Shown in pieces: positions 14,924-30,463 of a DNA stretch of 34,086 bases. Origin of the DNA: Candidatus Methanophagales archaeon (lineage in GTDB: Archaea; Halobacteriota; Syntropharchaeia; Alkanophagales; Methanospirareceae); assembly GCA_029241965.1 (NCBI GenBank), contig JAPWVK010000159.1:1-34086 (forward strand), read 5' to 3'. How positions within the stretch are numbered: the stretch's first letter is position 1; every line of letters begins with the position of its first letter. The translations under genes were made by a program, and so were the position numbers. Under the pieces are notes generated by a model. The model did no database searches. It was not told the origin of the DNA and saw nothing but the letters and a program-made list of their open reading frames with translations.

Positions 14924-15171
14924 TTCAATTACGCCTGTAATAGGCGAGCGACTTACAGACATTCAACCAAAACGCCGATATCATATGGAAAGAGGTTGAA
15001 GAACTTGTTAACAGGTTGCAAACCTGAATTACAAAAGCAGTTAACTGCTGCCCGATACAGAAAGGGTTATGAAATGCTTGAGCGGTATGAAGGGAAACTT
15101 TCACGTACCGTTCTGAGACGAGGAGGGGCGAGCAATCGCCCCATCCTTAGTCTGCTAGCTAAACAAATAAT

Positions 15172-16419: not shown

Positions 16420-16421
16420 AA

Positions 16422-16494
16422 TGGACTGGTCGGGATTTGAACCCGAGGCCTCTCGCACGCCAAGCGAGTGATCTTCCAACTGATCTACCAGCCC
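16422..16494 (-). tRNA. tRNA-Ala (anticodon GGC)
   Basis: GGGCTGG acceptor with G3:U70 Ala identity pair, D-arm GATC..GATC, anticodon loop TTGGCGT, 5-nt variable loop, T-arm CGGGTTCAAATCCCG, discriminator A. Confidence 0.85.
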
Positions 16495-16979: not shown

Positions 16980-17783
16980 CTATTTCCTCTTTACGTAGTA
17001 ATAAAAACCTACAATGCCAATTATAACCAAAGCGACAATTAGAATGATTAAGAGTTTGTACGTTTGTTTTGGCGACACAGGCGCAGGAGTAATTGTTACC
17101 GTGGGTGCAGGTGTTGCAGTTATTGTTTGTTTAGTCAATGCAGGAGTTACTGCGGGCGCATCAGAACCAGGATAGGAATGTTGGTCATTCGGATCGGTTC
17201 CTACAAACGTCTCATCTATGTCGCGATAACCGTCTCCATCTGCGTCCGTTTCTCCGCCCGCGCCACTCCGATTATATGGTGGTGTGGTAGTCACTACGTA
17301 TAACAGCCCATTTCTTGCGGCTGACGTTCCGAAATTGCCCTCGGGATCCGACAATTCGATATCACTCAGCGTCATATGGCTATAATTTATCGAATCAGAT
17401 GTTCTTTCCACGCTAAAGTTGAGCAAAGCAATTGAACCACTTGACCCATTTGATATGGCATATGCAAAAGGACCAGCGAGTGAAACACGAGTCCCCCCCT
17501 CAAAATCGTTGTTAAACCCTAAAACATTCCATTCCAACGTTAGTTCCCCTCTTAAAACGTTTGTAACGTTTATGACTCGCTTGTCATAAGCTATATTAAA
17601 TACAATAGCTTGAACCGGCCCGTTTTTTACTGTTGTTATATTTACTGGCACGATTACATGTGTTCCCTGCACTCCACTTGCATCTACCAGACCAAAACCA
17701 TCGGCACTTGGCTGTGCAGATACGGGTATCAGTGCTATTACCAAACACATGCCTATTCCATACGCTAACGTTTTAATATTCAT
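16980..17783 (-). CDS. Secreted cohesin-domain protein with Ca-binding Asp-rich segment and C-terminal TM anchor plus basic tail
   Basis: Signal peptide (start placed at MNIKTLAYG); cohesin-like pattern GTHVIVPVNITTVKNGPVQAIVFNIAYDKRVINVTNVLRGEL; DADGDGYRDIDETFVGTDPND; Pro/Thr linker; C-terminal LLIILIVALVIIGIVGFYYYVKRK. Confidence 0.55.
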   Translation of the reverse strand: MNIKTLAYGIGMCLVIALIPVSAQPSADGFGLVDASGVQGTHVIVPVNITTVKNGPVQAIVFNIAYDKRVINVTNVLRGELTLEWNVLGFNNDFEGGTRVSLAGPFAYAISNGSSGSIALLNFSVERTSDSINYSHMTLSDIELSDPEGNFGTSAARNGLLYVVTTTPPYNRSGAGGETDADGDGYRDIDETFVGTDPNDQHSYPGSDAPAVTPALTKQTITATPAPTVTITPAPVSPKQTYKLLIILIVALVIIGIVGFYYYVKRK

Positions 17784-18200
17784 TTCTTTCTCCGTTATAC
17801 AACCCTTATTGCAGGAACCCAATCATCGTATATCTCCCCGTTTGCGTCCGTGAATTTGGTGCAGGTAATTTCTCCGCCTGTTACGTTTATTCTATGTTCG
17901 TGTACTATCTGCGGATATGATCCTGTTTTTATTGTATAGTTGTACTTTTTACCTTCTCTTAATTTAAATGTATTCGTGAAATTTATGTTTTGATACTCGT
18001 CATTGTAACCGTTCCATGAGGCACTTTCATTCACGCCATGCCCCTGAATCCAAACGTATTCGGTATGCCCGCCTGTGCCTTCACAGGAATACGTATAGAG
18101 TGTATGCACGGTAATATCAGCATTCGGCGTAATCGTTCCTATGTGTATGCCGGAGATGGAGGGATAGGTGCCTGGGCCCGTATGGAATATTGTTTTTTCG
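17762..18200. repeat. ~440-bp direct repeat (copy 1) ~93% identical to 18762-19198
   Basis: Near-identical nucleotide stretches offset by exactly 998 bp; they cover the shared C-terminal domain plus ~35 bp beyond the stop, including the MNIKTLAYG start of the next gene. Confidence 0.8.
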
Positions 18201-18661
18201 AGCACATTTACTGAGATCGGAATCCTAAGGCCAGAATATTCATTTCCACCAATATTTGTATCCTGAAATTGAATATACATCCTTCTCTCATCGGAATGCC
18301 CTACTTCGCATGCGCTTCCCGACGTTGCGCCATATAATCCTGGTTCGGCATTCTTTGGTATCTTGATTGTAACAGTAAAAGTTTTTATTTCTCCACTCTT
18401 GATCGTGTACTTCTCTGGTTCGACTCTGATCCATGATGTAATGTTAATCAATTCTTCATCATCTTTCTCTACATGCTCGTAATATACGGACCAATATCCA
18501 GTTCTCTCAGTAGGTATTGTCCCCACTAGTGTGATATTTTGATTTAATGTATCACCCGGACAGCCTTCCCAGTTGCACATAGAGCGGCAATCAACCGATG
18601 TCGCGGATGCCGCCGGAACGCACAACAGTGCAATCAACATTATCAGTATTATTTTCTTCAT
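17795..18661 (-). CDS. Secreted two-domain surface protein (N-terminal domain paralogous to 30464-31066 and 31063-31722 genes; C-terminal ~125-aa domain shared with 18800-19729 gene)
   Basis: Signal peptide MKKIILIMLIALLCVPAASA; N-domain ITSWIRVEPEKYTIKSGEIKTFTVTIKIPKNAEPGLYGATSG; C-domain GTYPSISGIHIGTITPNADITVHTLYTYSCEGTGGHTEYVWIQGHG... Confidence 0.55.
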   Translation of the reverse strand: MKKIILIMLIALLCVPAASATSVDCRSMCNWEGCPGDTLNQNITLVGTIPTERTGYWSVYYEHVEKDDEELINITSWIRVEPEKYTIKSGEIKTFTVTIKIPKNAEPGLYGATSGSACEVGHSDERRMYIQFQDTNIGGNEYSGLRIPISVNVLEKTIFHTGPGTYPSISGIHIGTITPNADITVHTLYTYSCEGTGGHTEYVWIQGHGVNESASWNGYNDEYQNINFTNTFKLREGKKYNYTIKTGSYPQIVHEHRINVTGGEITCTKFTDANGEIYDDWVPAIRVV

Positions 18662-18761
18662 AATTACCTGTACTATTTTCGTATTAAAAGTACTTTATTA
18701 ATTTCATGCTCTTTGGTGTTTCCTTTGGCGCTATTACCAAACACAGCGCACTAATGCTTAA

Positions 18762-19198
18762 TCCATACGCTAACGTTTTAATATTCATTTCTTTCTCCGT
18801 TATACAAACCTTATTGCAGGAACCCAATCATCGTATATCTCCCCGTTTGCGTCCGTGAATTTGGTGCAGGTGATTTCTCCGCCTGTTACGTTTTTGCTAT
18901 GTTCGTGTACTATCTGCGGATATGATCCTGTTTTTATTGTATAGTTGTACTTTTTACCTTCTACTAATATAAATGTATTCTCGAATTCTATGTTTTGATA
19001 ATCGTCATTGTAACCGTCCCATGAGGCACTTTCATTCACGCCATGCCCCTGAATCCAGACGTATTTGGTATGCCCGCCTGTGCCTTCACAGGAATACGTA
19101 TAGAGTGTATGCACGGTAATATCAGCATTCGGCGTAATCGTTCCAATGTGTATGCCGGAGATAGAGGGATAGGAGCCCTGACCCGTATCGAATAAAGT
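18762..19198. repeat. ~440-bp direct repeat (copy 2)
   Basis: See copy 1; downstream of this copy (18690-18790, minus strand) lies an orphan 5' fragment MNIKTLAYGLSISALCLVIAPKETPKSMKLIKY of the cohesin gene. Confidence 0.8.
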
Positions 19199-19729
19199 TC
19201 CGGTAGTATAAAACGTCCCGTTCTTCACTGGTGCTGGTCCTTCGTTACCAGACGGATCCGACAATTGAATATCACTCAGGTTCATGTCAGTTTTATATGG
19301 TGCACCGCCTATGACGCGGAAGTTAAGAAGGACGACAGAACCACTTGAGCCATTCAGTATGGCATGAGCGGATGGTCCTGAGAGTAAAACACGGGTACCC
19401 CATGCAAAGTTGTTGTTAAAGCCTAAATTGCCCCAATTAGACGTTAGAGTACCTCTTGAAACGCCTGTAACGTTTATAACCGTCTTGTCATACGCTATGT
19501 TGAATACAATGCCTAAAATCGGACCGCTGCTTGTATTTGTAATGTTTACCGGCACGGTTACATAAGTCCCTATAAGCCCATTGGCATCGTCAACACCGAA
19601 ATTATCTGCGGTGGGCGCCGCCAGAGCCGTTAACTCAAATATAGCAAATACCGTTAACAACCCGAATATAGCTAAACCCCCTCTCAGTCCTATTAAGCCT
19701 CTTCGTTTCCTCGATGCGGTTTTTTTCAT
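18800..19729 (-). CDS. Secreted cohesin-domain protein with shared C-terminal domain
   Basis: Signal peptide; cohesin-like GTYVTVPVNITNTSSGPILGIVFNIAYDKTVINVTGVSRGTL; C-terminal domain near-identical to that of 17795-18661. Confidence 0.55.
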   Translation of the reverse strand: MKKTASRKRRGLIGLRGGLAIFGLLTVFAIFELTALAAPTADNFGVDDANGLIGTYVTVPVNITNTSSGPILGIVFNIAYDKTVINVTGVSRGTLTSNWGNLGFNNNFAWGTRVLLSGPSAHAILNGSSGSVVLLNFRVIGGAPYKTDMNLSDIQLSDPSGNEGPAPVKNGTFYTTGTLFDTGQGSYPSISGIHIGTITPNADITVHTLYTYSCEGTGGHTKYVWIQGHGVNESASWDGYNDDYQNIEFENTFILVEGKKYNYTIKTGSYPQIVHEHSKNVTGGEITCTKFTDANGEIYDDWVPAIRFV

Positions 19730-19760
19730 TGTAGTATAATATTTCTTTGGTAAAGCTTTT

Positions 19761-20810
19761 TCATTTCTTCTTTCGCAACCAAAGGTATCCCATGAGTACG
19801 AGCAATCCTCCAGAAACGAGGGTCATTGTACTCCATTCAGGAATCGGGTAGCCCGGGTCCGTTCCGGGTGATGATATGTAGCTCCATGCCATACCGGTCT
19901 GCACCTTGTAGTCATAGCTCGTATTGTTGTTTGTCAGATTGAGTGCTAAAAACTTTCCTGCCGGCACAGTAAACGCTGCTGCGGTTGTTTCAAACGAGAA
20001 GACGCTTTTGCTGCCGTTTCCAGTCAGTGTTGCCTGTGGTCCTCCGGCAGTAAAATTGGTGCCACCCGAAGAATTACCTATCTCAACCTTGAATGTATCT
20101 CCGTCTGCCGGTGCCGCGACAAACGTTATCTGCCCTGTCCAATTGTTGCCATTCACTGGAAAGGTAACGTCTGTCTGCGCCGCTGAATCCGCAACCCAGA
20201 TATGAGAGTCGCTGTGGTTTATGGTAATATTACCCTGTGGTTTGGTCTGGTTTCCCTTGTACATCTCGCTGTCGTTGTGCAGATACCAGGACTGTGTGCC
20301 GCTGACAGTAAAAGTCCCATTCTTTGGGGGGGCAGATCCTATTCTATAACCGCTTACATCTGAGAAGCTTATATTTACATACGTAAAGTTCATAGTACTT
20401 GTTTCACCCCGAGTTCCAATAACGCTGAAGTTGAGTAGAGCGACAGAACCACTTGACCCATTTGATATGTTATATTCGGCAGCTCCCGTCATGTAAACAC
20501 GAGTACCCCATGTAACGCTGTTGTTATAGTCGAAATTATTCCAACTAGACGTTAAATTACCTTTTAAAACGTCTGTAACGTTTATGACATTTTTGTCATA
20601 CACAATATTAAATATTATTCCCAAAAGTGGACCGTTGCTAACATTTGTAATGTTCACCGGCACAATCACCGAAGTCCCATGTGCGCCACTCGCATCGTCC
20701 ACACCAAAACTTTCCGCAGTAGGATCTTGTGCTGAAACAGGCATCGCCATTACAAGTACTGACAACAGCACGATTGCACTTAGTCCATGCACCCATCTAT
20801 TTCTATTCAT
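19761..20810 (-). CDS. Secreted cohesin-domain glycoprotein with PEF-CTERM-like (PEW + TM + RKKK) C-terminal anchor
   Basis: Signal peptide; cohesin-like GTSVIVPVNITNVSNGPLLGIIFNIVYDKNVINVTDVLKGNL; sequon-rich C-terminal half; ends PEWSTMTLVSGGLLVLMGYLWLRKKK. Confidence 0.55.
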   Translation of the reverse strand: MNRNRWVHGLSAIVLLSVLVMAMPVSAQDPTAESFGVDDASGAHGTSVIVPVNITNVSNGPLLGIIFNIVYDKNVINVTDVLKGNLTSSWNNFDYNNSVTWGTRVYMTGAAEYNISNGSSGSVALLNFSVIGTRGETSTMNFTYVNISFSDVSGYRIGSAPPKNGTFTVSGTQSWYLHNDSEMYKGNQTKPQGNITINHSDSHIWVADSAAQTDVTFPVNGNNWTGQITFVAAPADGDTFKVEIGNSSGGTNFTAGGPQATLTGNGSKSVFSFETTAAAFTVPAGKFLALNLTNNNTSYDYKVQTGMAWSYISSPGTDPGYPIPEWSTMTLVSGGLLVLMGYLWLRKKK

Positions 20811-21084
20811 TTTTCTGGCTTCGGGGCAAAAATATATCTTTCCCCCCCTTTTTTCTAACCGCTTATCCCTTTCGCTTTTATTCTATATGCACTGTACCAT
20901 ATATAAAGTTGTATGTGGAGTGTTCCCTATATAAAGCTATACCTATGTGGAAACTATGGTGTGTGAACAGGCAGAAGCACAGGAGAATATGCGAATACGC
21001 TCTTTCGGTTGCAATAAAGTCCAATTTGGGTAATCTGTGCGATCCGTAGTTGACTATTATCCAGAGCACATTCGTCTCGCTTCA

Positions 21085-21714
21085 TCATGTCAATATGATT
21101 TCGCCCAATACCGCCCGGTTCATCAACACTAAATCGCCGGCATCTGCTATCCTATCGTTATGGTTCAAGTCCCACCGCCAATCTCCCGGTATTTCCCATA
21201 ACACCGCTCGGTTCATCAACACTAAATCGCCGGCATCTGCTGACTTCCCCTCATTGTTCAAATCGCCTACCAGCCAAAGCGATAGATTCGTGGTCTCATT
21301 GGCAGTTGCATTTACTTCAGTTGAGTTATCCCAATACCTTGTTTTCGAGGCGTTTACGTAATAATCGCCGGCATTAACGTTTGTAAAGTTGTAATAGCCC
21401 GTTCCGTTCGTGTGTGTTGAACTTACGACATTCATAGTGGTCGCGTTCGTCAAATTTACCGATACATTTGGCATCCCGATAGTAGTATTATTACTATATG
21501 TTATCTGCCCTGTTATAATTACGGGTGCGGGCAGCACCGTTACGTACTGTACTGCAGCAAACACGAGTGAGGGAAGCAGCGCTAATACCACTAAAATCAA
21601 TATGATCATCTCCTTCTTTCTATTACTCTGTTCCATCTTTTTAAATGCTCTTTTTTTGTTAGAATTTGCTTCAAAATCCAAAGCCGCACTAATCGCATTC
21701 ATTCTTCCCAGCAT
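21085..21714 (-). CDS. Dockerin-domain protein with carboxypeptidase-regulatory-like (PEGA-like) beta-sandwich domain
   Basis: Two dockerin repeats GDLNNEGKSADAGDLVLMNRAVLWEI and DLNHNDRIADAGDLVLMNRAVLGEI (DxNxDG...D...L..R..L); GQITYSNNTTIGMPNVSVNLTNATT...TNGTGYYNFTNVNAGDYYVNAS; TM/signal segment; likely true start at internal Met near 21636. Confidence 0.55.
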   Translation of the reverse strand: MLGRMNAISAALDFEANSNKKRAFKKMEQSNRKKEMIILILVVLALLPSLVFAAVQYVTVLPAPVIITGQITYSNNTTIGMPNVSVNLTNATTMNVVSSTHTNGTGYYNFTNVNAGDYYVNASKTRYWDNSTEVNATANETTNLSLWLVGDLNNEGKSADAGDLVLMNRAVLWEIPGDWRWDLNHNDRIADAGDLVLMNRAVLGEIILT

Positions 21715-22136
21715 AGTTTAACCTTCTCCCCCTTTAAAAAGTTAGCATCGAAGAGGTCTAAACCATTGACCCTGCCTAAGATTGGCGGAACATCATTTGA
21801 ATCTGAAATTGCCACTGGTAACTCGAATTCTTTACCGTTGAGTCTAAATTTGAGTTGGTGAATGTAAACGATTAGTTTTGCGTACGGAACAATCCCTCTT
21901 GTGACATCTTCAATTAATAAGTCGCCGACATCTCTTGGTAGGACCGATATATCAGCACCAGTATCTGCTAATGCATTCTCTATTTTTATCCATTCTAAAG
22001 TATCGCCTTTTATTTCAACTTCAATCAGAGGTCTTAATACCTTCCCAAAAATTCCACTTTCTTTTTCCGTGTACTCAAAAACTTTCTCGGGCATTTGAAC
22101 ACCTAAGCTATTAAAATTCCTGCTGGTGGCTCCCAT
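21699..22136 (-). CDS. Retropepsin-like (clan AA) aspartic protease
   Basis: ALADTGADISVLP active-site motif, GRV..L motif near the C-terminus (ILGRVNGLD); 145 aa. Confidence 0.5.
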   Translation of the reverse strand: MGATSRNFNSLGVQMPEKVFEYTEKESGIFGKVLRPLIEVEIKGDTLEWIKIENALADTGADISVLPRDVGDLLIEDVTRGIVPYAKLIVYIHQLKFRLNGKEFELPVAISDSNDVPPILGRVNGLDLFDANFLKGEKVKLCWEE

Positions 22137-22258
22137 CTAATAGATAATTTTTTGTTGGGATATTTCACCTTTGCTCGTTTCCACATCTCTTTTAAATTCC
22201 TACCTTCTAAAATTGGTTTTCCATCAGCCAATACAAAGTATTCATACATTTTTTCCAT
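22103..22258 (-). CDS. Small ORF (51 aa) overlapping the start of the protease gene, possible partner protein
   Basis: MEKMYEYFVLADGKPILEGRNLKEMWKRAKVKYPNKKLSIRWEPP; not in the six-frame track at this length cutoff; a degenerate copy precedes the truncated protease paralog at ~6400. Confidence 0.25.
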   Translation of the reverse strand: MEKMYEYFVLADGKPILEGRNLKEMWKRAKVKYPNKKLSIRWEPPAGILIA

Positions 22259-22343
22259 TTTTCATCACCCCATAATTTATTTCTTCTTTATTCTTTTTAT
22301 AATTTTCACTATTCTTCTTCTCGCTCAATCAAGCGTTATATTG

Positions 22344-23801
22344 TTATACCGCTTCTCCCAACACCGACACCGTGGATGTGTCCGTTCCCGACCCTTTCAG
22401 CTCGTATGCCAGATACAAGTCATTGTAAGTTCCTACGGATACTGTTACCCCTGTATCTTTATAGCTACCCCATGACTTTAGAGTAGTCCAGCTACTGACC
22501 GCCCAGGGGCTCGTGTCATCTACGGTTACATTACAGAAATGAACCGGATAACTCTCTATGGCTGAAGACGTATTTGCATCCCTGACGAAGCATGCTAGCG
22601 TTATTGTCTCCCCTACGGTGTAACTATTTTCGTCAGGAGGCAAATCCCATGTTACGTTTGACCAGCCCCACTTAACCACCGACTCATTCTGATAAGAGCT
22701 GTTAGAATTAGATGCATTGTCATAAGTTGTTTCGGTAATATTGTATTCTCCGTCCTCAGGGACGGACAAAGTAACGACAAAAGTTCCATTTGTGGCGTTT
22801 GTAGTTGAATTGACTATCTTTCCTTCGTAAGGCACTTTGTCTATTTTCTTGATGATTACAGGTTTATTATTCTCATCAAGGGCGACCAAAATTCTTCCAT
22901 CCGAAATCTTCTGGTAGATGTTTTCTATCCTTATAAGAGAGAATTTATTTATATACCCGTTGCCAATATTATCAGTGGTGGTAGAAATGTCGGAAGTCGA
23001 AATCAGGTTTAAAGTTCCCACGGGATTGAAGGAAGAGATGGAAGAGCTTCCGGGAATGGAAGAGATGGTTGTAGAATTCATAAGGCTGAAGATTTTCGAG
23101 CATGAATTGAAGAAGTCTAAGGAATTACAGAGGTTCATATTTGAGTCGTTGTCCGCAAAGAGCAAATTGACGCTGGCAGATGCTATTGAACTTGGGGCGA
23201 AAATGAAGGAAGGAATGCTTGAAGAGCTCAAAGAGAAGGGATTACTGTAGATGAGACTGGTTGTGGATGCAAATGAGCTGTTCGCGGGGATAATCGCTAA
23301 AGGTAAGGAATTACAGAGTTGGACGCTGGACATATTATTTTCAGATGAAGTTGAATTGTTCGCACCTTTCATATTGCTTGCCGAATTGGAGAAGAACAGG
23401 GATGAGATAAGGGAAAAGTCAGGATTTTCCCTGAGGGATTTTGATGTGTTCGTTGGCATCCTCAAGTTAAGAGTCGGATTTATCCCTCTGGAGCGGTTTT
23501 TAGCTAAGATTCCGGAGGCTAAGGAGTTGGCACCGCATTTAAAAGATGTCGAATATTTCGCATAAGCATTGAAACTTGATTGCCCAATCTGGACGCAAGA
23601 AAAAGCGTTCAAAAAACAATCTGTAGTCAAGGTGTTCTCAACTCTTGATTTGTTTTCGTTTTTATCCGAGACAGGCCCATAGCCCGCTAAAGAGGTTGAA
23701 GGATATTTTGGATTGACTGAAGTGTAAACCTTATGCTCTGGCGAAAACGTCAGAACTGTTTCGTATCTACTCAAATCCATAAATCTTATTTTTTGCTTCA
23801 T
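22344..23801 (-). CDS. Truncated paralog of the giant surface protein (last ~190 aa) preceded by a third, N-terminally truncated intein-like element
   Basis: C-terminus ...SWTTLKSWGSYKDTGVTVSVGTYNDLYLAYELKGSGTDTSTVSVLGEAV nearly identical to the giant protein C-terminus; N-terminal part carries FSPEHKVY (Hint block B) and ILVALDENNKPVIIKKIDKVPYEGKI (Hint C-terminal half) around a low-complexity S/L-rich segment that is antisense to 22987-23682. Confidence 0.45.
   Translation of the reverse strand: MKQKIRFMDLSRYETVLTFSPEHKVYTSVNPKYPSTSLAGYGPVSDKNENKSRVENTLTTDCFLNAFSCVQIGQSSFNAYAKYSTSFKCGANSLASGILAKNRSRGINPTLNLRMPTNTSKSLRENPDFSLISSLFFSNSASNMKGANNSTSSENNMSSVQLCNSLPLAIIPANSSFASTTSLIYSNPFSLSSSSIPSFIFAPSSIASASVNLLFADNDSNMNLCNSLDFFNSCSKIFSLMNSTTISSIPGSSSISSFNPVGTLNLISTSDISTTTDNIGNGYINKFSLIRIENIYQKISDGRILVALDENNKPVIIKKIDKVPYEGKIVNSTTNATNGTFVVTLSVPEDGEYNITETTYDNASNSNSSYQNESVVKWGWSNVTWDLPPDENSYTVGETITLACFVRDANTSSAIESYPVHFCNVTVDDTSPWAVSSWTTLKSWGSYKDTGVTVSVGTYNDLYLAYELKGSGTDTSTVSVLGEAV
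22987..23250 (+). CDS. Small antitoxin-like protein (partner of the PIN gene), antisense within intein-like copy 3
   Basis: MSEVEIRFKVPTGLKEEMEELPG..., homologous to 26826-27050 and 27864-28094 products (shared E-[IV]-V-V/F-K/E-V-P N-terminus); stop abuts the PIN start (TAGATG); track ORF starts earlier at 22918. Confidence 0.45.
   Translation: MSEVEIRFKVPTGLKEEMEELPGMEEMVVEFIRLKIFEHELKKSKELQRFIFESLSAKSKLTLADAIELGAKMKEGMLEELKEKGLL
23251..23682 (+). pseudogene. PIN-domain toxin gene interrupted by an in-frame TAA
   Basis: MRLVVDANELFAGI... (PIN N-terminal Asp) ...HLKDVEYFA-stop-ALKLDCPIWTQEKAFKK...; intact paralogs read HLKDMPYVALSLKFDCKIL and DVDFFALALKLNCPLW at the same position. Confidence 0.45.
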
Positions 23802-26800
23802 ACCGCTTCTCCCAACACCGACACCGTGGATGTGCCCGTTCCCGACCCTTTCAGCTCGTATGCCAGATACAAGTCTTTGTGTGTTCCTTTGGATACTCTT
23901 ACCCCTGTATCTTTATAGCTACCCCAAGATTTTAGACTAATCCAGCTACCAACAGCCCCGGGGCTCGTGTCATTTGCGGTTACGTTAAACTTCTCGTCAT
24001 TTATTATTGTTGACCAACCGTTCACCTCTTCTACCTTCAGCCAGATCTTGTATTCAGTCGAAGAAGAAGGATTGTAAATTGTAACTACTGGTGAGTTACT
24101 GGTCACATTTTGCGGGTTGCCGCTGCCGTCCGCATTATTGTGTGGGTCAACTACTGTGGCACCAGTTGCACCCGAGAAGTTAATGGAACTGATACTCTGC
24201 GAAGCAGTTTGATTTCTGATTTCAAGTGTCGTTGCGTATGACAACTCTATGGATGTATTGGCTTCATCATCCGCAGTGACGTTATAAAACAGCGTGGCAT
24301 TATCCGTGATATTACATTTTGGATAGTACCATCCTACTGCCACGCCTGATGTATCCCAATCCAGGACGGCATATCCGCTGCTATTCGTGTAATTCAGACC
24401 AAGGTATGTCACGGTAGAGTCAGTCTTGTTATAAAAACGAACCGGATAATTCTCTATGCCCGATGAGGTATTGACATCGCGGACAAGGCATGTTAGCGTT
24501 ATTATCGCACCTGATTCGTAACTACTTCCGCCGGAAGGCGAGCCCCACGTTACGTTTGACCAACCCATCTTAAACACCGATTGATTTTGATACGAGATAT
24601 TATAATTCGATGCGTTATCATACATCTCTACCGACACGTTGTATTTCCCCTTAGCAGCACTTGAATTTAGATAAAAACTCGCATTTACATACGAATTTGG
24701 TGTGTAAGCAGTATCCGACGACGAATTGATGGTCGCAGTAGCGTTGTATATCGTGACCGTGTAGTTCTTTGGATTATCCTCCGTGTACGAGAAGTTGACA
24801 TAAAACTGCTCGCCGCCCTTCTTGTAGATTGGAACGGAAGTTGTAGGCACGTCTATCGTGATAGTCGGTGATTGCGAATCTATGGTGAAGTTCGTACCGA
24901 GCCACGTCTCTGACGTCTCGCCCTCATCGTCTGTTGCCACGCAATGCAACGTATAGAGTCCGGGACTATAATTGGATGCGTTGAACGCTATATCGGCAAT
25001 CCCGCCAGCGGCATCCGCTTCGGTAAAAGTATTGTTTACTATCGAAATAAATGTCTGGTTCGGATAGCACAAAGTCAGATTATGAACCACTGTGCCGCCG
25101 TCCGGATCGGTCGCAACCCCAACACCAATATCGAATATACCGTCATAGCTACCATTCATATCATAGTCCTTTACACCACTGATATTGAAATACCTAATGT
25201 GCGGGACGGTAGGTGGATAGTGCACCAATCTGATGTCGTTTGTAAGCAGCGTTGAATTGCTCCAACTACCCGATGCGTTTGCTGCATACAGCTTCATCTG
25301 GTGCTGCATACCACTTTTAGAGTAGTCGAAAAATAACTTCGGCGTCCATGCCGCCTGCAAAAATGACGAGCCATCATTGGTACTCGTCCATGCAACGTTT
25401 GTTTGCGCAAACGATATGTTCATACCGCTCGTACCATCTACATACGCCAGGCGGTACTCATTGCTTGTAGCTGTCGGAGATCGGAAGTATATGTATCCAT
25501 GCGGTGTTGTGTTTACGTCAGAACCTATAACCCTGCTATTGTTCACACCAATCGTAAAGGTCACGAACGAACTGTTGTACGGCTCGTACGTGTAATCATC
25601 TACTGTTGTGCCAGTGTACGAAGTCAAGTAAGTATAATATGGACTTTCGAGTGGCTTACCGCCAGTGATGTTATACGAGTCGTTTAGGTAGTAAATATCA
25701 AGATTGTTCGATGCTCCCAGATCGGTTGCCTCGAAAGCGATATGTATTTTATAGTCCGAAGAACCTTTAATTGCTTCAGTGTCCCAGAACTTGACCAGAG
25801 CAGCACGGTATCCTGTTGAGCCCTGTTTATAGATGTCATAATATTTGCTAATCTCTTTCTGCATCCGCGTCCTATCTAAGTAATACATGTTCTCAAATAC
25901 AGTATTCTCAACCGTGCCATTCCAGTGCACATACGAGTGCGTGTCATTTACCTTTTGGATAGTAAGCCGGGAAGTGTTTTCATCCGCGCCCGCCCATTTC
26001 CAGACGTTGCCCTCTGTGATGGTGGCATTATCCTCAAAGTTCAAGCGCTGTATTGTAGCATTCCGGTTATCGGCACGTAGAATCTGCTCGTTGCATAAAG
26101 CCCATACCGCAGATTTGTTGTTGCTCGGAACACGGAGTGACCAGTTATAACTATCGAGCACCGAGTCCCAGAGCGTCCAGACGAGCGATACGCTGCTGTT
26201 ATTGAGTGTATGTGTAGCATCCGTAGTAACCAACCAGGTTACGTTGAATGCACCGGTCGAGTTCTCGTAAATCGTAGCCGGCTCCTGCGAGATGAGTTCA
26301 AATGTCGGACAGCCCGCCTGATTGTATGCATAATCGACGTCACCACCAAATCGAAACTCTAATGCGTGTTTGCCCGAAGTTAAAACCTTACTTGTTTCGT
26401 AGCTGGTTTCGTTACAGGAATAATTGTGTATGAATAAGGAATTGTTTCGCCATTGATAATCCAGTGTGCGATTGCCGCATTTCAGGGCAAGCAATTGCAG
26501 GTCATAGTTTGAGTTGCCGCACCAGACAGGCGTTGAGTTTTTACGCCGTATTAAAAGTATGCGGTTCGGGACGGTAACAGAGTAAATCTTGCCGTTATAA
26601 GGGACTTCTTCGATTTTTTTTACTGCTACGGGATTCTGTTCGGAATCGAGGAATACTAACTGTTTGTCGGGTAGCTCGTGGAGTTCCGAGATTTTTAGCA
26701 ATGAATAGGTATTTAAACCGTTCGGATTTATAGTATTAGTGATGACGGTTTCTTTTTCATTCACGGTCACAGGCATCGAGAAGTTATTTAAATACAGCAA

Positions 26801-29800
26801 GTTAGTTTTATTATTGGTGAGAGAAATGGCCGAAATAGTTGTTAAGGTTCCAGAGGATATTGGTATAGAGCTTGGTAGGGTTTCAGAAGAGAATTGGCAA
26901 TTGTTATTCTCAAGATTCCTGAGAAGAGAGCTGGAAGAAATAAGAGGGATCGAAGCGATAGTATCTAAATCAAAACTAACAGAGGAGCAAGCCAAAGAAT
27001 TAGCAGATGAAGTAAGTTTAGCGATAGCTAAAAGACTTCTTGAGAAGTGATTCGAGATGTTATTGGTAGTTGACGCTAATGTCGTATTCTCAGCACTAAT
27101 AAGAAGAGGCAAGCCATTAAGGGTATTTGAGTTGAACAAGCTTCTCATGAAATTTGAATTTATTGCACCAGAGTTCCTGTTCTTTGAGGTGGGTAAAAGA
27201 ATGGATAAAATACTCAAGCTCACAGATTTATCTAAAGAAGAGTTCATAACGGTTTTTTCATTCATTAAGAATGAACTCGAGCTAATTCCTCTTGAAACAT
27301 TTGAAGATAAAGTTGATGAAGCCAAGGAGAGATCACCACACTTGAAGGATATGCCATATGTTGCTTTATCCCTCAAATTCGATTGTAAGATTCTGTCTGG
27401 AGATAAAGGAATAAAGGAATGCTTGCCTGGTAGAGTCATCATACCATCTAAAGCCTTAAGAATTCTATTTGGGAGGACTGCACCATAAACCTTATGCTCA
27501 GGCGAAACCAGCAGTTGACTGCCATCTTCCAGAGTAAGCTCGAACATCGCATCCGAATAGTCGTATTCCAGATATTTAATCGGTTTCTGATTGCAAAAAA
27601 GTTTTGTGTGTTCTTTTGTAATTTGTGGTTTCCTTGTGGTTTCGTTATGCCGTTTCACCAGCACGATGTCGTTCGGGACGTCAACGTCATAAATCTTGCC
27701 GGTATAAGGGACTTCTTCGATTTTTTTTACTGCTACGGGATTCAGCTCGGAGTCAAGGAATACTAACTGTTTGTCTGATAGCTTGTCATAGAGTTCCGAT
27801 ATTTTTAGCAATGAATAAGTATTTAAATACAGCAAGCCAGTCTTATAATTAGGGGCGATAGAAATGTCAGAGTTAGTTGTTGAGGTTCCAGGATTGCTTA
27901 GAGGAGAGGTTGGTAAGCTAGAGCGAGAGATAGAGGAGCTAATATCGTGGGAGGAGAAGCGTAAATTACTCTCTCTGTTCATGGATGAGGTTATGAAAGA
28001 TGCTAAACAGTTGAGCGAAGACGAACTGGTTACACTTGGAAGAGAGATTAAGAAAGGCAGGTTTGAAAAGCTCAAGCAAAGGGGGTTTGTATGAGTGCGG
28101 TTAGTTGCTGACACAACCGAACTCTTCTCGTTCTTCAACGCTCGGTCAAAGGCAAGGGAGTTATCCATAATCCCTGAATTGGAATTACATTCCCCCTCCT
28201 TTTCTTTATATGAACTCAAAGAACATAAATCCAAGATTCTTACGAGTTTCTCGTTGACCGAGACACAGTTTCTATTGATAATGAAGTTGCTTAAGACCGT
28301 TGTAAAAGTTGCTAAAGAGGAAGAATACTCGGATTTTCTATCGGAGGCTAAGGAAATATCTCCAGACCCTAACGATGTAGATTTCTTTGCGTTGGCTCTG
28401 AAACTGAACTGTCCGCTTTGGTCAGAGGATAAGCTGCTAAAGGGGCAGTCTAAGGTTAAGGTACTCTCTACAAAAGATTTACTTGAACTTTTATCTCTCA
28501 TCAGCCCATAAACCTTATGCTCAGGCGAAACCAGCAGTTTACTGCCATCCGCCAGAGTAAGCTTGAACATCGCATCCGAATAGTCGTATTCCAGATATTT
28601 AATCGGTTTCTGCCATTCCTGCTCTCCCGTCTCCTGGTTTAAAGTCAGAACTTCTTCTTCTGGTTCTAAATCTTTGAACAGTTTCCAGCCTTCTTTTGTT
28701 AGAACCTCGGTTTCTTCGTCGTAACATTCGTACGGTTGGTTAGTCCAGGTCGTCCCGTTAACCGCGGTTATAGTCAAATCCGCAGTTCCTTCCGTCTCGA
28801 ACTTGACAGACCAGTTTCCACCTACTGCTGGATAAGACTGGACATTAATTATACTAATCGGATCAACAGCAACATACCAGGGTCTTGCCTCTGTAAATGT
28901 TTCTGAATCATAACTAATTTCCGCAGTACCTAAAGCGTACAAATAAGGCCACACAGGAGGAACTGCGTAAGAATAACTGACAGATGTTTTCTTGCCAATT
29001 AAATCTTTATTCCAGGTTATTGTCTTTGTATCGTCTTCCTGCATAACCGTAGCGGCATCCGTTGAATACACATCGAACTCAGCAGGCACAAATTCTTTTA
29101 ACGTTACGGATTCCGCATCAGTAAAGCATTCTACGTCAATCCTGACCTCAAACCTGTCCTGCAGTGTGGGGTCTATCTTGCTTTGTGTCGTTCTTATGAT
29201 GTCGAATTCATACTCCGGCTGAACCCGGAAATACGTATTGAAGAATACTTCAACGTTGTCAATTAAACCCGTGACTGAGATCGAGTGATTACCCTCTATT
29301 TCCGTTGGGTAATCCAGGTTATAAATGCCAGATTCGCTACTTGCGGTAATCGTGCCATCAGCGGTGGAATAAATCGTTTCCTCGTTATCGGGATTGTTTA
29401 CGGTTAAATAAAGATCGGCATTGCTGACTGAGTGCCCTGCTTTATCCAGGACAACGATAACGAATTCCACGGTTTCACCGGGTTTGTAGATGCTTTTTTT
29501 GGTGTTTACGGAAACAAGGCCCCACGGGAATTCGGATTCTAAAACGTAAACGTGCTCGTCCTTCACTAACTCCACACTTAATGTATATACGCCCACTCGG
29601 AATGCTCGTTCCTTAGGCAATTTAATTGCGAATTTGCCTTCGCCTTTTTTCGCTATTTCGGGCGCGATGTCTGTTAGTGCACCCGAAGAATCATAAACAA
29701 AAGTCTCTATCGTTTCGTTTTCTGTCACCCAGCGTTTCAATGCTTTTTGGGGTGCGCCAATAGCAGCTTCCTCACTTACAGTGCTAAGCATTTCCCGCGA

Positions 29801-30460
29801 TGCGTTTTCGGTAACATTTTCATTAAAAGTTTTCTGCGAAGCGTTTTTGATAAAACTTTTATTAAAAGTTTTATATTCAAACGAAAAAGTCGGTTCCTCA
29901 TCCAGGGAATAAGACTCTTTGTTTGCAATTAGTTTTGGCGGTTCAATCACGGATTCCGTAACATTAATATTACGTGATTCACCTGTTGATTCGTTAATCG
30001 TATAATTCAAACCGATGACGGAGGTATTATCAGTTGCATTTTCCGGTGTTTGTATCGTAACGCCCGAGGCATTACCTGTTGTATTATCCGTTGTATTTTC
30101 CGGTGTTTGTAACGTAACGCCCGAGGCATTACCTGTTGTACTATTATTAGTTGCAGTTTCAGGTGTTTGTATCGTAATGCCCGTGGCATTATCAGTTGTG
30201 TTATCAGTTACATTATCAGGTGATAGTATCGGATTTATCGGTGCCGTTACGTCCGTAATATTTTCTGACGGGGTATCATTAAGGTTAGTTACGTATGATG
30301 TAATGTTTTCAGGCAGCGTTGTGTTCTCGTTTTGTGTTGCACCAAAAGCGATTAAAGGCACGATAAGCAAAGCTATGACAATTGTAATGCGTGCGCTCTT
30401 CCAGTTTGTTTTTGCTCTTAGCATCTTTTCGCAGGTCAAGCTTCCTTTTCTATCATACAT
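23798..30460 (-). CDS. Giant secreted cell-surface glycoprotein (2220 aa) containing two tandem intein-like insertions
   Basis: N-terminal signal/TM (ARITIVIALLIVPLIAFGA), three 22-aa tandem repeats, very high density of N-x-S/T sequons throughout, repeated beta-rich domains, C-terminal domain shared with 22344-23801 and 31856-32419 products; likely true start at MLRAKT (~30424). Confidence 0.55.
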   Translation of the reverse strand: MYDRKGSLTCEKMLRAKTNWKSARITIVIALLIVPLIAFGATQNENTTLPENITSYVTNLNDTPSENITDVTAPINPILSPDNVTDNTTDNATGITIQTPETATNNSTTGNASGVTLQTPENTTDNTTGNASGVTIQTPENATDNTSVIGLNYTINESTGESRNINVTESVIEPPKLIANKESYSLDEEPTFSFEYKTFNKSFIKNASQKTFNENVTENASREMLSTVSEEAAIGAPQKALKRWVTENETIETFVYDSSGALTDIAPEIAKKGEGKFAIKLPKERAFRVGVYTLSVELVKDEHVYVLESEFPWGLVSVNTKKSIYKPGETVEFVIVVLDKAGHSVSNADLYLTVNNPDNEETIYSTADGTITASSESGIYNLDYPTEIEGNHSISVTGLIDNVEVFFNTYFRVQPEYEFDIIRTTQSKIDPTLQDRFEVRIDVECFTDAESVTLKEFVPAEFDVYSTDAATVMQEDDTKTITWNKDLIGKKTSVSYSYAVPPVWPYLYALGTAEISYDSETFTEARPWYVAVDPISIINVQSYPAVGGNWSVKFETEGTADLTITAVNGTTWTNQPYECYDEETEVLTKEGWKLFKDLEPEEEVLTLNQETGEQEWQKPIKYLEYDYSDAMFKLTLADGSKLLVSPEHKVYGLMRDKSSSKSFVESTLTLDCPFSSLSSDQSGQFSFRANAKKSTSLGSGDISLASDRKSEYSSSLATFTTVLSNFIINRNCVSVNEKLVRILDLCSLSSYKEKEGECNSNSGIMDNSLAFDRALKNEKSSVVSATNRTHTNPLCLSFSNLPFLISLPSVTSSSSLNCLASFITSSMNRESNLRFSSHDISSSISRSSLPTSPLSNPGTSTTNSDISIAPNYKTGLLYLNTYSLLKISELYDKLSDKQLVFLDSELNPVAVKKIEEVPYTGKIYDVDVPNDIVLVKRHNETTRKPQITKEHTKLFCNQKPIKYLEYDYSDAMFELTLEDGSQLLVSPEHKVYGAVLPNRILKALDGMMTLPGKHSFIPLSPDRILQSNLRDKATYGISFKCGDLSLASSTLSSNVSRGISSSSFLMNEKTVMNSSLDKSVSLSILSILLPTSKNRNSGAINSNFMRSLFNSNTLNGLPLLISAENTTLASTTNNISNHFSRSLLAIAKLTSSANSLACSSVSFDLDTIASIPLISSSSLLRNLENNNCQFSSETLPSSIPISSGTLTTISAISLTNNKTNLLYLNNFSMPVTVNEKETVITNTINPNGLNTYSLLKISELHELPDKQLVFLDSEQNPVAVKKIEEVPYNGKIYSVTVPNRILLIRRKNSTPVWCGNSNYDLQLLALKCGNRTLDYQWRNNSLFIHNYSCNETSYETSKVLTSGKHALEFRFGGDVDYAYNQAGCPTFELISQEPATIYENSTGAFNVTWLVTTDATHTLNNSSVSLVWTLWDSVLDSYNWSLRVPSNNKSAVWALCNEQILRADNRNATIQRLNFEDNATITEGNVWKWAGADENTSRLTIQKVNDTHSYVHWNGTVENTVFENMYYLDRTRMQKEISKYYDIYKQGSTGYRAALVKFWDTEAIKGSSDYKIHIAFEATDLGASNNLDIYYLNDSYNITGGKPLESPYYTYLTSYTGTTVDDYTYEPYNSSFVTFTIGVNNSRVIGSDVNTTPHGYIYFRSPTATSNEYRLAYVDGTSGMNISFAQTNVAWTSTNDGSSFLQAAWTPKLFFDYSKSGMQHQMKLYAANASGSWSNSTLLTNDIRLVHYPPTVPHIRYFNISGVKDYDMNGSYDGIFDIGVGVATDPDGGTVVHNLTLCYPNQTFISIVNNTFTEADAAGGIADIAFNASNYSPGLYTLHCVATDDEGETSETWLGTNFTIDSQSPTITIDVPTTSVPIYKKGGEQFYVNFSYTEDNPKNYTVTIYNATATINSSSDTAYTPNSYVNASFYLNSSAAKGKYNVSVEMYDNASNYNISYQNQSVFKMGWSNVTWGSPSGGSSYESGAIITLTCLVRDVNTSSGIENYPVRFYNKTDSTVTYLGLNYTNSSGYAVLDWDTSGVAVGWYYPKCNITDNATLFYNVTADDEANTSIELSYATTLEIRNQTASQSISSINFSGATGATVVDPHNNADGSGNPQNVTSNSPVVTIYNPSSSTEYKIWLKVEEVNGWSTIINDEKFNVTANDTSPGAVGSWISLKSWGSYKDTGVRVSKGTHKDLYLAYELKGSGTGTSTVSVLGEAV
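26826..27050 (+). CDS. Small antitoxin-like protein, antisense within intein-like copy 2
   Basis: MAEIVVKVPEDIGIELGRVSEENWQLLFSRFLRRELEEIRGIEAIVSKSKLTEEQAKELADEVSLAIAKRLLEK; 6 nt upstream of the PIN start; track ORF starts earlier at 26739. Confidence 0.5.
   Translation: MAEIVVKVPEDIGIELGRVSEENWQLLFSRFLRRELEEIRGIEAIVSKSKLTEEQAKELADEVSLAIAKRLLEK
27057..27488 (+). CDS. PIN-domain (VapC-like, PIN_3-like) toxin
   Basis: MLLVVDANVVFSAL (Asp6), FEFIAPEFLFFEV (conserved Glu), HLKDMPYVALSLKFDCKILSGDKG (C-terminal Asp motifs); 143 aa. Confidence 0.6.
   Translation: MLLVVDANVVFSALIRRGKPLRVFELNKLLMKFEFIAPEFLFFEVGKRMDKILKLTDLSKEEFITVFSFIKNELELIPLETFEDKVDEAKERSPHLKDMPYVALSLKFDCKILSGDKGIKECLPGRVIIPSKALRILFGRTAP
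27864..28094 (+). CDS. Small antitoxin-like protein, antisense within intein-like copy 1
   Basis: MSELVVEVPGLLRGEVGKLEREIEELISWEEKRKLL...; stop TGA directly abuts the GTG start of the PIN gene. Confidence 0.5.
   Translation: MSELVVEVPGLLRGEVGKLEREIEELISWEEKRKLLSLFMDEVMKDAKQLSEDELVTLGREIKKGRFEKLKQRGFV
28095..28511 (+). CDS. PIN-domain (VapC-like) toxin, GTG start
   Basis: VRLVADTTELFSFF (Asp), ...EISPDPNDVDFFALALKLNCPLWSEDK; 138 aa. Confidence 0.55.
   Translation: MRLVADTTELFSFFNARSKARELSIIPELELHSPSFSLYELKEHKSKILTSFSLTETQFLLIMKLLKTVVKVAKEEEYSDFLSEAKEISPDPNDVDFFALALKLNCPLWSEDKLLKGQSKVKVLSTKDLLELLSLISP
30030..30240 (-). repeat. Three tandem ~66-bp coding repeats (22-aa sequon-rich units DNTTGNASGVTIQTPENATDNT) near the 5' end of the giant gene
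   Basis: Repeated nucleotide unit cgtaacgcccgaggcattacctgttgt... visible three times; sits within the 30424/30460-23798 giant-protein CDS. Confidence 0.6.
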
Positions 30461-30463
30461 ACA

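What the first reader, a model, noticed from the sequence alone, without database searches (positions are those of the whole stretch)
16980..21714. Archaeal cohesin-dockerin gene cluster: three tandem cohesin-domain genes next to a dockerin-domain gene
Three secreted proteins each carry an N-terminal domain with the hallmark cohesin pattern G-T-x-V-x-VPVNITN...G.....F.I.YDK.VINVT.V..G.L. The adjacent gene encodes two textbook dockerin Ca-binding repeats (DLNNEGKSADAGDLVLMNRAVL and DLNHNDRIADAGDLVLMNRAVL) fused to a PEGA/carboxypeptidase-regulatory-like domain. Cohesin and dockerin modules are known in some archaea but are rare, and their function there is unclear. Co-localisation of anchored cohesins (C-terminal TM/basic tails, one PEW-type) with a dockerin protein suggests a cell-surface protein-assembly system.
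Basis: partly seen in the sequence, partly recalled or inferred. Interest (0 to 1): 0.55.

Follow-up and report, generated by a model that had tools for sequence, protein, structure and literature searches.

The report
ANME-1 cohesin–dockerin surface-protein gene cluster
A methane-oxidising archaeon (ANME-1) carries a conserved run of genes for three cohesin-bearing surface proteins and one protein with a divergent dockerin; the modules are real, but ANME-1 genomes are already known to be full of them and their function is still unknown.

Summary
Genes B (19761-20810), C (18800-19729) and E (16980-17822) each pass Pfam's Cohesin cut-off. A profile of their cohesin modules hits only cohesins in the PDB.

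Gene A (21085-21714) is signal peptide + CarboxypepD_reg + a C-terminal 64-residue duplicated module. Pfam Dockerin_1 does not match that module. Other evidence says it is a dockerin:
- sequence profiles find almost only solved dockerins;
- an AlphaFold model (pLDDT 93.6) matches 22 PDB chains, all dockerins (TM about 0.75);
- the module sits C-terminal to many different domains;
- it shares a polypeptide with a cohesin in 24 of 93 relatives.

It is a divergent subfamily, with Ca loops one residue longer than canonical (ADAGD motif).

- the cohesin genes are not strictly tandem, because gene D (17795-18661) has no cohesin and is a chimera;
- only B and E have C-terminal membrane tails;
- no sortase-type signal model matches.

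The order 'giant surface protein, dockerin gene, 2-4 cohesin genes' recurs in contigs from other assemblies. The organism is ANME-1, where 77-80 cohesin and 112-149 dockerin domains per genome are published. This is therefore a new member of a known kind, not a rarity. Binding between these modules is inferred, not shown.

The parts
21085..21714 (-). Gene A: secreted CarboxypepD_reg + dockerin protein. The ORF is 209 aa; the probable start is M27 at 21636, giving 183 aa. Signal peptide ...LPSLVFA|AVQ.
   Evidence: ORF. Homologues of 176-192 aa. Hydrophobic N-terminus.
21277..21516 (-). Gene A, CarboxypepD_reg (transthyretin-like beta-sandwich) domain, residues 67-146
   Evidence: Pfam PF13620, 44.4 bits against a cut-off of 32.3. 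The AF2 full-length model shows strands at moderate to good pLDDT here.
21088..21279 (-). Gene A, divergent dockerin module, residues 146-209. Two 22-residue repeats at 21199-21264 and 21106-21171.
   Evidence: Profile vs PDB: the top 9 hits are dockerins, E = 0.002. AF2 pLDDT 93.6. Foldseek: 22 of 22 hits are dockerins, TM 0.67-0.77. No Pfam Dockerin_1 hit.
19761..20810 (-). Gene B (349 aa): signal peptide, cohesin (20313-20702), unassigned middle domain (19851-20303), then the C-terminal tail PIPEW-STMTLVSGGLLVLMGYLWL-RKKK (19764-19847)
   Evidence: Pfam Cohesin 49.5 bits. Best PDB hit is cohesin 2xdh. The tail has no hit to PEF/PGF-CTERM models. 21 N-x-S/T sequons.
18800..19729 (-). Gene C (309 aa): signal peptide, cohesin (19226-19594), C-terminal 'domain X' (18803-19198). 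No membrane tail.
   Evidence: Pfam Cohesin 42.2 bits. Domain X has no Pfam or PDB match and 72 homologues in which it is a C-terminal module.
17795..18661 (-). Gene D (288 aa): no cohesin. The N-terminal beta-sandwich is 47% identical to the window protein at 30464-31066. The C-terminal domain X (17798-18193) is 89% identical to that of gene C. It is a lineage-specific chimera, absent between the C and E orthologues in L001, L004, L005 and L008.
16980..17822 (-). Gene E (probable start 17783, 267 aa): signal peptide, cohesin (17391-17684), TSP3-like Ca-binding repeat (17184-17246), Thr/Pro-rich stalk, C-terminal transmembrane helix + KRK
   Evidence: Pfam Cohesin 33 bits; TSP3_bac 19.9 bits, below its cut-off of 25. 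Hydrophobic segment at residues 249-279. Orthologues have the same architecture.
23798..30460 (-). Upstream giant secreted protein (2220 aa; MG2 domain; interrupted by intein-like inserts). A gene of this kind precedes the dockerin gene in the related contigs, so it probably belongs to the same conserved unit.
   Evidence: Pfam. Synteny.

Best explanation
This is part of a conserved ANME-1 (Methanophagaceae) cell-envelope operon. It encodes three single-cohesin surface proteins and one small secreted protein whose only recognisable parts are a CarboxypepD_reg beta-sandwich and a C-terminal dockerin.

Proposed mechanism. All five proteins are exported through N-terminal signal peptides. B and E stay on the membrane through C-terminal hydrophobic anchors, E on a Thr/Pro-rich stalk, and hold their cohesins outside the cell. 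C carries its cohesin on a widespread uncharacterised C-terminal module (domain X), which may attach it to another envelope component. The dockerin of A, and probably those of other proteins with this dockerin type, folds around Ca2+ and plugs into these cohesins, tethering non-enzymatic binding domains to the cell surface. The two dockerin repeats are nearly identical (ADAGDLVLMNRAVL twice). In clostridial type I dockerins that kind of symmetry goes with a dual binding mode.

Shown: domain identities, export signals, anchors, conserved gene order and lineage.

Inferred: that these cohesins bind this dockerin, the Ca dependence, and a role in surface or consortium architecture.
For: Cohesin HMM above cut-off in B, C and E. 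The cohesin profile hits only solved cohesins.

The dockerin module profile hits solved dockerins across both repeats. The AF2 model has pLDDT 93.6 and pTM 0.82. All 22 Foldseek PDB matches are dockerins, rmsd 1.5-3.0 A.

The module behaves as a dockerin should. It lies at the extreme C-terminus of nearly all of the 150 best of 255 representatives. It follows diverse domains (CarboxypepD_reg 46/93, NosD/Beta_helix, LamG_3, DUF2341, CARDB, fn3, cupredoxin, subtilase). It shares a polypeptide with a Pfam cohesin in 24 of 93 (examples P0018, P0021).

Synteny. The order 'giant protein, dockerin gene, 2-4 cohesin genes' is seen in L001, L004/L005, L007 and L008-L010, which come from different assemblies. 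Dockerin-protein identity to the window ranges from 68 to 88%. L006 shows the giant gene and the dockerin gene, followed by an unannotated gene cut by the contig end.

L001 has in the same place a 678-aa adaptor with two cohesins plus CarboxypepD_reg plus dockerin.

Archaeal cohesin-dockerin pairs from A. fulgidus are reported to bind specifically (as cited in PMC9012536).
Against: There is no binding evidence for any ANME module.

Pfam Dockerin_1 fails, and as aligned the Ca loop is 13 rather than 12 residues, so Ca binding and cohesin recognition could differ.

The full-length AF2 model left the dockerin unstructured (pLDDT < 50).

With about 80 cohesin and more than 110 dockerin domains per ANME-1 genome, adjacency alone is weak evidence for cognate pairing.

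The conserved order among relatives of 68-92% identity may be plain vertical inheritance.

Protein A has no obvious 'cargo' function.
Confidence: 0.6

Rival explanations
1. It is a scaffoldin-type gene cluster without in-cis pairing. The three cohesin proteins are generic surface receptors for the many dockerin proteins encoded elsewhere in the genome. Protein A docks to cohesins encoded elsewhere, or to the multi-cohesin proteins reported in ANME-1. Adjacency reflects shared regulation or history, not cognate binding.
For: In ANME-1, dockerin domains (112-149) outnumber cohesin domains (77-80). The three cohesin modules are only 54-59% identical to each other, so they may have different specificities. 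Cohesin-gene number and architecture vary between relatives (2 to 4 genes). From my own knowledge, in bacterial cellulosome systems scaffoldin genes cluster while dockerin-bearing genes are dispersed.
Against: The dockerin gene keeps its position immediately upstream of the cohesin genes in every related contig recovered that extends far enough.
Confidence: 0.25
2. The modules are homologous to cohesin and dockerin but do not bind each other here. The cohesin-like beta-sandwiches act as adhesin or carbohydrate-binding domains. The dockerin-like duplicated EF-hand is only a Ca-dependent stabilising or envelope-binding tail.
For: The function of non-cellulosomal cohesin/dockerin modules is unknown (PMC5244752; PMC9012536). 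The loop is one residue longer than canonical. Pfam Dockerin_1 does not recognise the module.
Against: Cohesin and this dockerin type co-occur in the same polypeptide in 26% of representatives and in the same operon here, which is the pattern expected of interacting partners. The predicted fold superposes on dockerins solved in complex with cohesins.
Confidence: 0.1
3. It is a true cellulosome-like polysaccharide-degrading complex.
For: Only the presence of cohesin and dockerin modules.
Against: No glycoside hydrolase, polysaccharide lyase catalytic domain or CBM was found in the cluster. Each window protein has a single cohesin. The cargo of this dockerin family is dominated by beta-sandwich, beta-helix and adhesin-type domains. 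From my own knowledge, the host is a methane oxidiser.
Confidence: 0.02

Closest known systems
Cohesin/dockerin-domain protein repertoire of ANME archaea (Timmers et al. 2017, PMC5244752; Chadwick et al. 2022, PMC9012536)
   Same: Same lineage (ANME-1). The same pattern is seen: many cohesins, and dockerins recognised by the broad InterPro dockerin entry but not by the Pfam type I repeat (IPR002105 counts of 1 and 0 against IPR016134 counts of 149 and 112). Non-enzymatic cargo. A proposed role in surface attachment or cell-cell contact.
   Different: Those papers give domain censuses and general trends. In the passages I read they do not describe this conserved operon (giant protein, CarboxypepD_reg-dockerin gene, 2-4 single-cohesin genes). 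I did not check their supplementary tables.
Archaeoglobus fulgidus non-cellulosomal cohesin and dockerin (solved cohesin 2xdh; binding reported by Haimovitz et al. 2008, as cited in PMC9012536)
   Same: Archaeal and non-cellulosomal. 2xdh is the best solved-structure match for the window cohesins (E = 0.0016 for a single sequence; 1.2e-6 for the profile).
   Different: Sequence similarity is low (about 31 bits). The identification of 2xdh as the A. fulgidus cohesin rests on my own knowledge; the PDB molecule name is only 'COHESIN'.
Clostridial type I cohesin-dockerin pairs and anchoring scaffoldins (e.g. C. thermocellum 1ohz/2ccl, OlpA/OlpC 3ul4/4dh2)
   Same: The predicted dockerin fold superposes at TM about 0.75 and rmsd 1.6-2.2 A. 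The repeats are duplicated and near-symmetrical. Single-cohesin, cell-anchored proteins resemble the OlpA/OlpC-type anchoring proteins in logic.
   Different: There are no SLH domains, no multi-cohesin scaffoldin in the window, no CBM and no glycoside hydrolases. The Ca loop is one residue longer (ADAGD instead of N-S-T-D as aligned). Anchoring is by a C-terminal transmembrane helix or an uncharacterised domain. The Pfam Dockerin_1 model is not matched.
Clostridium perfringens NagH-type non-cellulosomal dockerin (2jnk/2ozn)
   Same: It is the top PDB hit of the broader module profile (E = 0.0014). It too is a non-cellulosomal use of the pair.
   Different: Only the first repeat and the start of the second align. 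The organism is a bacterial toxin-complex context.

Membership tests
Cohesin domain (Pfam PF00963) | Score above the curated gathering threshold of the family HMM | tested here: met
   B 49.5, C 42.2 and E 33.0 bits against a cut-off of 24.1
Cohesin domain (Pfam PF00963) | Homology to experimentally solved cohesin beta-sandwiches | tested here: met
   Profile A8 against the PDB: 12 of 12 hits are cohesins, best 2xdh at E = 1.2e-6.
Cohesin domain (Pfam PF00963) | Binds a dockerin | not testable with these tools
   No multimer prediction or experiment was available
Dockerin (type I repeat, Pfam PF00404) | Match to the Pfam Dockerin_1 HMM | tested here: not met
   No hit at E <= 1 on the whole protein and E <= 10 on the isolated module. 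No homologue carries a precomputed PF00404.
Dockerin (fold/superfamily level) | Two tandem segments of about 22 residues, each a Ca-binding loop followed by a helix, forming the three-helix dockerin fold | tested here: met
   The repeats are visible in the sequence. The AF2 model has pLDDT 93.6 with helices at 18-28 and 49-59 plus a short helix at 36-38. Foldseek: 22 of 22 PDB hits are dockerins, TM 0.67-0.77. Profiles hit solved dockerins.
Dockerin (fold/superfamily level) | Canonical 12-residue EF-hand-like Ca loop (D1, N/D3, D/N5, N/D9, D12) | tested here: not met
   As HMMER aligns the module to CelS and XynY dockerins, each loop has one extra residue: D-L-N-x-x-G-x-x-A-D-A-G-D, 13 residues. 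Acidic or amide residues are kept at positions 1, 3, 5, 10 and 13.
Dockerin (fold/superfamily level) | Ca2+-dependent binding to a cohesin | not testable with these tools
   Needs ITC, ELISA or a complex prediction with Ca2+
Cellulosome | Multi-cohesin scaffoldin, CBM and dockerin-bearing carbohydrate-active enzymes | tested here: not met
   There is one cohesin per protein in the window and no GH or CBM domains. A relative has a 2-cohesin + dockerin adaptor (L001), but again without enzymes.
Archaeosortase-type C-terminal sorting signal (PGF-CTERM / PEF-CTERM) | Match to the NCBIfam/TIGRFAM sorting-signal models; short motif + TM helix + basic tail at the extreme C-terminus | tested here: inconclusive
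   The tripartite layout is present in B (PIPEW...RKKK) and in the L001 orthologue (PVPEY...RKKG). No PEF, PGF or PIP-CTERM signal model hit at E <= 10; the only sortase-related signal hit is LPXTG_anchor at 15.3 bits, just below its cut-off of 15.9. No archaeosortase gene was found among the window ORFs scanned.
ANME-1 (Methanophagaceae) cohesin/dockerin repertoire | Encoded in an ANME-1 genome | tested here: met
   Close homologues are named Candidatus Methanophagaceae / Methanophaga sp. ANME-1 by their sources

The most novel reading that the evidence does not exclude
The conserved operon (small beta-sandwich proteins, a giant MG2/LamG-type protein, a CarboxypepD_reg-dockerin protein, and 2-4 single-cohesin proteins anchored by a TM helix or by the uncharacterised 'domain X') is a self-contained ANME-1 surface-assembly kit. 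In it a distinct dockerin subfamily with 13-residue loops pairs with the cohesins encoded next to it. Domain X is a new archaeal envelope-anchoring module, doing the job SLH domains do in bacteria. The assembled structure mediates cell-cell or cell-matrix contact in methane-oxidising consortia.
Probability: 0.15. Interest if true: 0.6.

Novelty: new member of a known kind. Interest (0 to 1): 0.35.

Why it matters
ANME archaea carry one of the largest non-cellulosomal cohesin/dockerin repertoires known, and nobody knows what it does. The published work asks for experiments to find which cohesins bind which dockerins.

This cluster is a compact, conserved and experimentally tractable candidate set: one 64-residue dockerin and three cohesins of about 130 residues encoded side by side. 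A first ANME pairing could be tested on it.

It also shows that the standard Pfam Dockerin_1 model misses this dockerin subfamily, which matters for censuses that rely on Pfam alone.

Beyond that, the find is expected for this lineage rather than surprising.

Tried and rejected
1. Pfam and NCBIfam scans of the whole protein A and of the isolated dockerin module found no dockerin model. I therefore turned to profile-vs-PDB search and structure prediction.

2. AF2 on full-length A with 18 close homologues folded only the CarboxypepD_reg domain. The dockerin had pLDDT < 50, so that model was unusable for fold search. A module-only alignment of 24 more diverse sequences solved this.

I removed that row.

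4. The word-indexed profile search with the module returned mostly short gene fragments, which say little about cargo. The exhaustive representative search plus Pfam answered that question.

5. The C-terminal tails of B, E and the L001 orthologue matched no PEF, PGF or PIP-CTERM signal model in NCBIfam. The 'PEW-type sorting signal' is left as unproven.

6. Domain X (the C-termini of C and D) has no Pfam hit and no solved relative by profile. Its function is unknown.

7. The middle domain of B has no Pfam hit.

8. Cellulosome reading: rejected on domain content.

No complex prediction was therefore made.

10. A literature search for inteins with antisense PIN genes found nothing relevant.


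Full report
WHAT IS THERE. The interval 16980-21714 holds five genes, all on the minus strand.
- Gene A, 21085-21714. Its probable start is M27 at 21636, judged from the 176-192-aa homologues.
- Gene B, 19761-20810.
- Gene C, 18800-19729.
- Gene D, 17795-18661.
- Gene E, 16980-17822. Its probable start is M14 at 17783, which is also the public gene call.
All five begin with a hydrophobic signal-like segment.

COHESINS. Pfam Cohesin (PF00963, cut-off 24.1 bits) scores 49.5 bits in B, 42.2 in C and 33.0 in E. B alone finds the solved cohesin 2xdh as its best PDB relative. A profile of the nine cohesin modules from the window and two related contigs finds 12 PDB sequences at E <= 0.01. All are cohesins, with 2xdh best at 1.2e-6. 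The three window modules are 54-59% identical to one another, and E is 78-84% identical to its orthologues. The cohesin claim is confirmed. Gene D has no cohesin. Its N-terminal half is 47% identical to the small secreted protein at 30464-31066. Its C-terminal 132 residues are 89% identical to the C-terminus of gene C. No such gene lies between the C and E orthologues in L001, L004, L005 or L008. D is therefore a recent chimera inserted between C and E.

DOCKERIN. Gene A has a CarboxypepD_reg domain (44.4 bits against a cut-off of 32.3; PEGA is below its cut-off), followed by two 22-residue repeats. Pfam Dockerin_1 does not match, even when the 66-residue module is scanned alone at E <= 10. 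None of the homologues carries a precomputed PF00404. Four independent lines nevertheless support it:
1. A profile of nine such modules finds solved dockerins as its nine best PDB hits: CelS 2mte/1daq, XynY 2ccl/1ohz and others, best E = 0.002. The alignments span both repeats and place a one-residue gap in the known dockerins within each loop. A broader 21-sequence profile gives 10 dockerins among 12 hits, the best being the non-cellulosomal C. perfringens NagH dockerin at E = 0.0014.
2. AlphaFold2 on the module alone, with 24 diverse homologues, gives pLDDT 93.6 and pTM 0.82. It has two long helices and a short one between them. All 22 Foldseek matches in the PDB are dockerins, at TM 0.67-0.77 and rmsd 1.5-3.0 A. 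The earlier full-length model left this part disordered.
3. The module is modular and terminal. An exhaustive profile search of 1.84 billion representatives finds 255 proteins at E <= 0.001 and 185 at E <= 1e-10. Among the 150 best that are listed, the match almost always lies at the last residues of the protein.
4. Among 93 of these proteins scanned with Pfam, 24 also contain a Pfam cohesin. 46 have CarboxypepD_reg just upstream. Others carry NosD/beta-helix, DUF3344, Laminin_G_3, DUF2341, CARDB, fn3, cupredoxin or subtilase domains (examples).
I conclude that this is a true dockerin homologue of a divergent subfamily (consensus GDLNxNGxxADAGDLVLMKRASxGEI, twice), not a textbook type I dockerin. 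The same pattern is visible in published counts for ANME-1. The broad dockerin entry IPR016134 finds 149 and 112 domains, while the type I repeat entry IPR002105 finds 1 and 0 (PMC5244752, Table 2).

ANCHORS.
- E ends in a TSP3-like Ca-binding repeat (19.9 bits, below cut-off), a Thr/Pro-rich stretch, a strongly hydrophobic helix and KRK.
- B ends in PIPEW, a moderately hydrophobic 19-residue segment and RKKK. Its L001 orthologue ends in PVPEY, a TM segment and RKKG. No PEF, PGF or PIP-CTERM signal model matches these tails, so an archaeosortase signal is possible but unproven.
- C has no membrane segment. Instead it has domain X, a highly conserved 130-residue module with invariant C..GTGGH and TGSYPQI.H motifs. 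Domain X has no Pfam or PDB relative. It ends many Methanophagales proteins that carry PKD, fn3, NosD or subtilase domains.

ORGANISM AND CONTEXT. Close homologues are labelled Candidatus Methanophagaceae or Methanophaga sp. ANME-1 by their sources. The window is chromosomal: gyrB, TyrRS, AglB/STT3, a MatE transporter, and CoaBC as read from the ORF translation. The gene order 'giant secreted protein, CarboxypepD_reg-dockerin gene, cohesin genes' recurs in other assemblies:
- L001 (GCA_964400255.1) has four cohesin genes, including a 678-aa protein with two cohesins, CarboxypepD_reg and a dockerin.
- L004/L005 have two cohesin genes.
- L007 has at least one.
- L008 has three; the related contigs L009 and L010 show two and at least one.
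- L006 shows the giant gene and the dockerin gene, but the next gene is cut by the contig end.
L001 also shares small genes upstream of the giant gene. The unit is therefore conserved within the family, with a variable number of cohesin genes.

HOW IT PROBABLY WORKS. Shown: homology, export signals, anchors and synteny. Inferred: the membrane-anchored cohesins of B and E, and the domain-X-borne cohesin of C, are displayed on the cell surface. There they capture the Ca-folded dockerin of A and probably other dockerins of the same type. The captured proteins carry binding-type beta-sandwich domains rather than enzymes. The near identity of the two repeat helices suggests a dual binding mode, as in C. 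thermocellum type I dockerins (my own knowledge; 2ccl is among the fold matches). I put 0.6 on this overall. I put about 0.25 on the variant in which the neighbours are not each other's partners. With about 80 cohesins and more than 110 dockerins per genome, adjacency is not strong evidence. The conserved order could also be simple inheritance.

COMPARISON WITH WHAT IS KNOWN. This is not a cellulosome: there is no multi-cohesin scaffoldin in the window, no CBM and no glycoside hydrolase. It belongs to the non-cellulosomal archaeal cohesin/dockerin repertoire already reported as unusually large in ANME-1 and ANME-2a (PMC5244752). That repertoire is discussed as a possible means of attaching proteins to the cell exterior or mediating partner contact (PMC9012536; for the bacterial partners, PMC10553843). 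In the text I read I found no description of this particular conserved operon. I did not check the supplementary tables of those papers.

VERDICT. Novelty: a new member of a known kind. Interest 0.35: a tractable test case for an open question, but expected in this lineage.

Noticed in passing
window 23798-30460 (-), with + strand ORFs 26742-27050, 27057-27488, 27864-28094, 28095-28511; also 22344-23801 (-) with 22918-23250 and 23251-23565 (+); L001:4488-6587: The giant surface-protein gene is interrupted by an intein-like (Hint) insert (Pfam Intein_splicing, 37 bits), which the L004 orthologue lacks at that site. Inside each Hint copy, where a homing endonuclease would normally sit, the other strand encodes a two-gene cassette: a small antitoxin-like ORF plus a PIN_2 nuclease (E = 8e-22, 3e-20, 2e-9). 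The Hint reading frame stays open straight through the antisense of the cassette, as a Ser-rich stretch. This holds in all four copies examined (three here, one in L001, PINs 31-49% identical). The Hint frame has 0 stops while the other two antisense frames have 12-23. Codon-order shuffles keep it open in only 4-10% of trials per copy. Most free-standing PIN_2 homologues in other archaea do not have an open antisense frame. The terminal residues look degenerate (HN|E, KN|S) and one copy lacks its N-terminal part, so activity is doubtful. I found no literature on inteins carrying antisense PIN/toxin-antitoxin genes. This may deserve its own investigation.
   Followed up: partly
window 18803-19198 and 17798-18193 (-): 'Domain X' is a strongly conserved C-terminal module of about 130 residues (FDTG..YPSISG.H.GTI...C.GTGGHTE...TGSYPQI.H...C..F.DANG..Y.DWIPAIRL). 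It has no Pfam or PDB relative. It ends at least 72 proteins, mostly from Methanophagales, after PKD, fn3, NosD or subtilase domains. It is a candidate new anchoring or binding module.
   Followed up: partly
window 17795-18661 (-) and 30464-31066 (-): Gene D is a chimera. Its N-terminal half is 47% identical to the small secreted protein encoded about 12 kb upstream. Its C-terminal half is 89% identical to the end of the neighbouring gene C. It is absent from related contigs, which points to recent domain shuffling inside the cluster.
   Followed up: yes
window 30464-32419 (-) and L001:37-1281: Three small secreted-looking genes (187, 219 and 200 aa) precede the giant gene. The genes at L001:37-1281 resemble them (38-65% identity). 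The 187-aa protein also resembles the last 150 or so residues of giant-gene homologues (about 30% identity to L007-L010), and the 184-aa L001 protein is 36% identical to the window giant protein's C-terminus. The conserved unit may therefore span about 15 kb (16980-32419) and include several proteins sharing one terminal domain.
   Followed up: partly
window 14244-15155 (+) and 1553-2173 (-): Rfam finds group II intron RNA domains: D1-D4 fragments plus domain V/VI. The hits span only about 0.6-0.9 kb each, and I identified no intron-encoded protein in them. They look like ORF-less or degenerate group II introns.
   Followed up: no
window 21699-22136 (-): A 145-aa ORF overlaps the long form of gene A's start. 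It has weak retroviral-type (clan AA) aspartic protease similarity (RVP E = 0.003, below cut-off). It is absent from the same position in L008 and found in none of the related contigs.
   Followed up: no
window 328-1197 (-): A CAP (cysteine-rich secretory protein) domain protein with a hydrophobic segment before the CAP domain. A different CAP-domain protein elsewhere (P0022) carries the same ADAGD-type dockerin at its C-terminus, but this one does not.
   Followed up: partly
window 16422-16494 (-) and 15172-16479 (-): The listed TTG start of the CoaBC-like ORF overlaps tRNA-Ala(GGC). The long N-terminal extension is probably an ORF-listing artefact, and the real start lies further downstream.
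   Followed up: no
window 19761-20810 (-) and the cluster generally; 2293-4026 (-): The surface proteins are dense in N-x-S/T sequons (21 in the 349-aa protein B, 11 in A). An AglB/STT3 oligosaccharyltransferase gene lies in the same window, consistent with heavily N-glycosylated envelope proteins.
   Followed up: no
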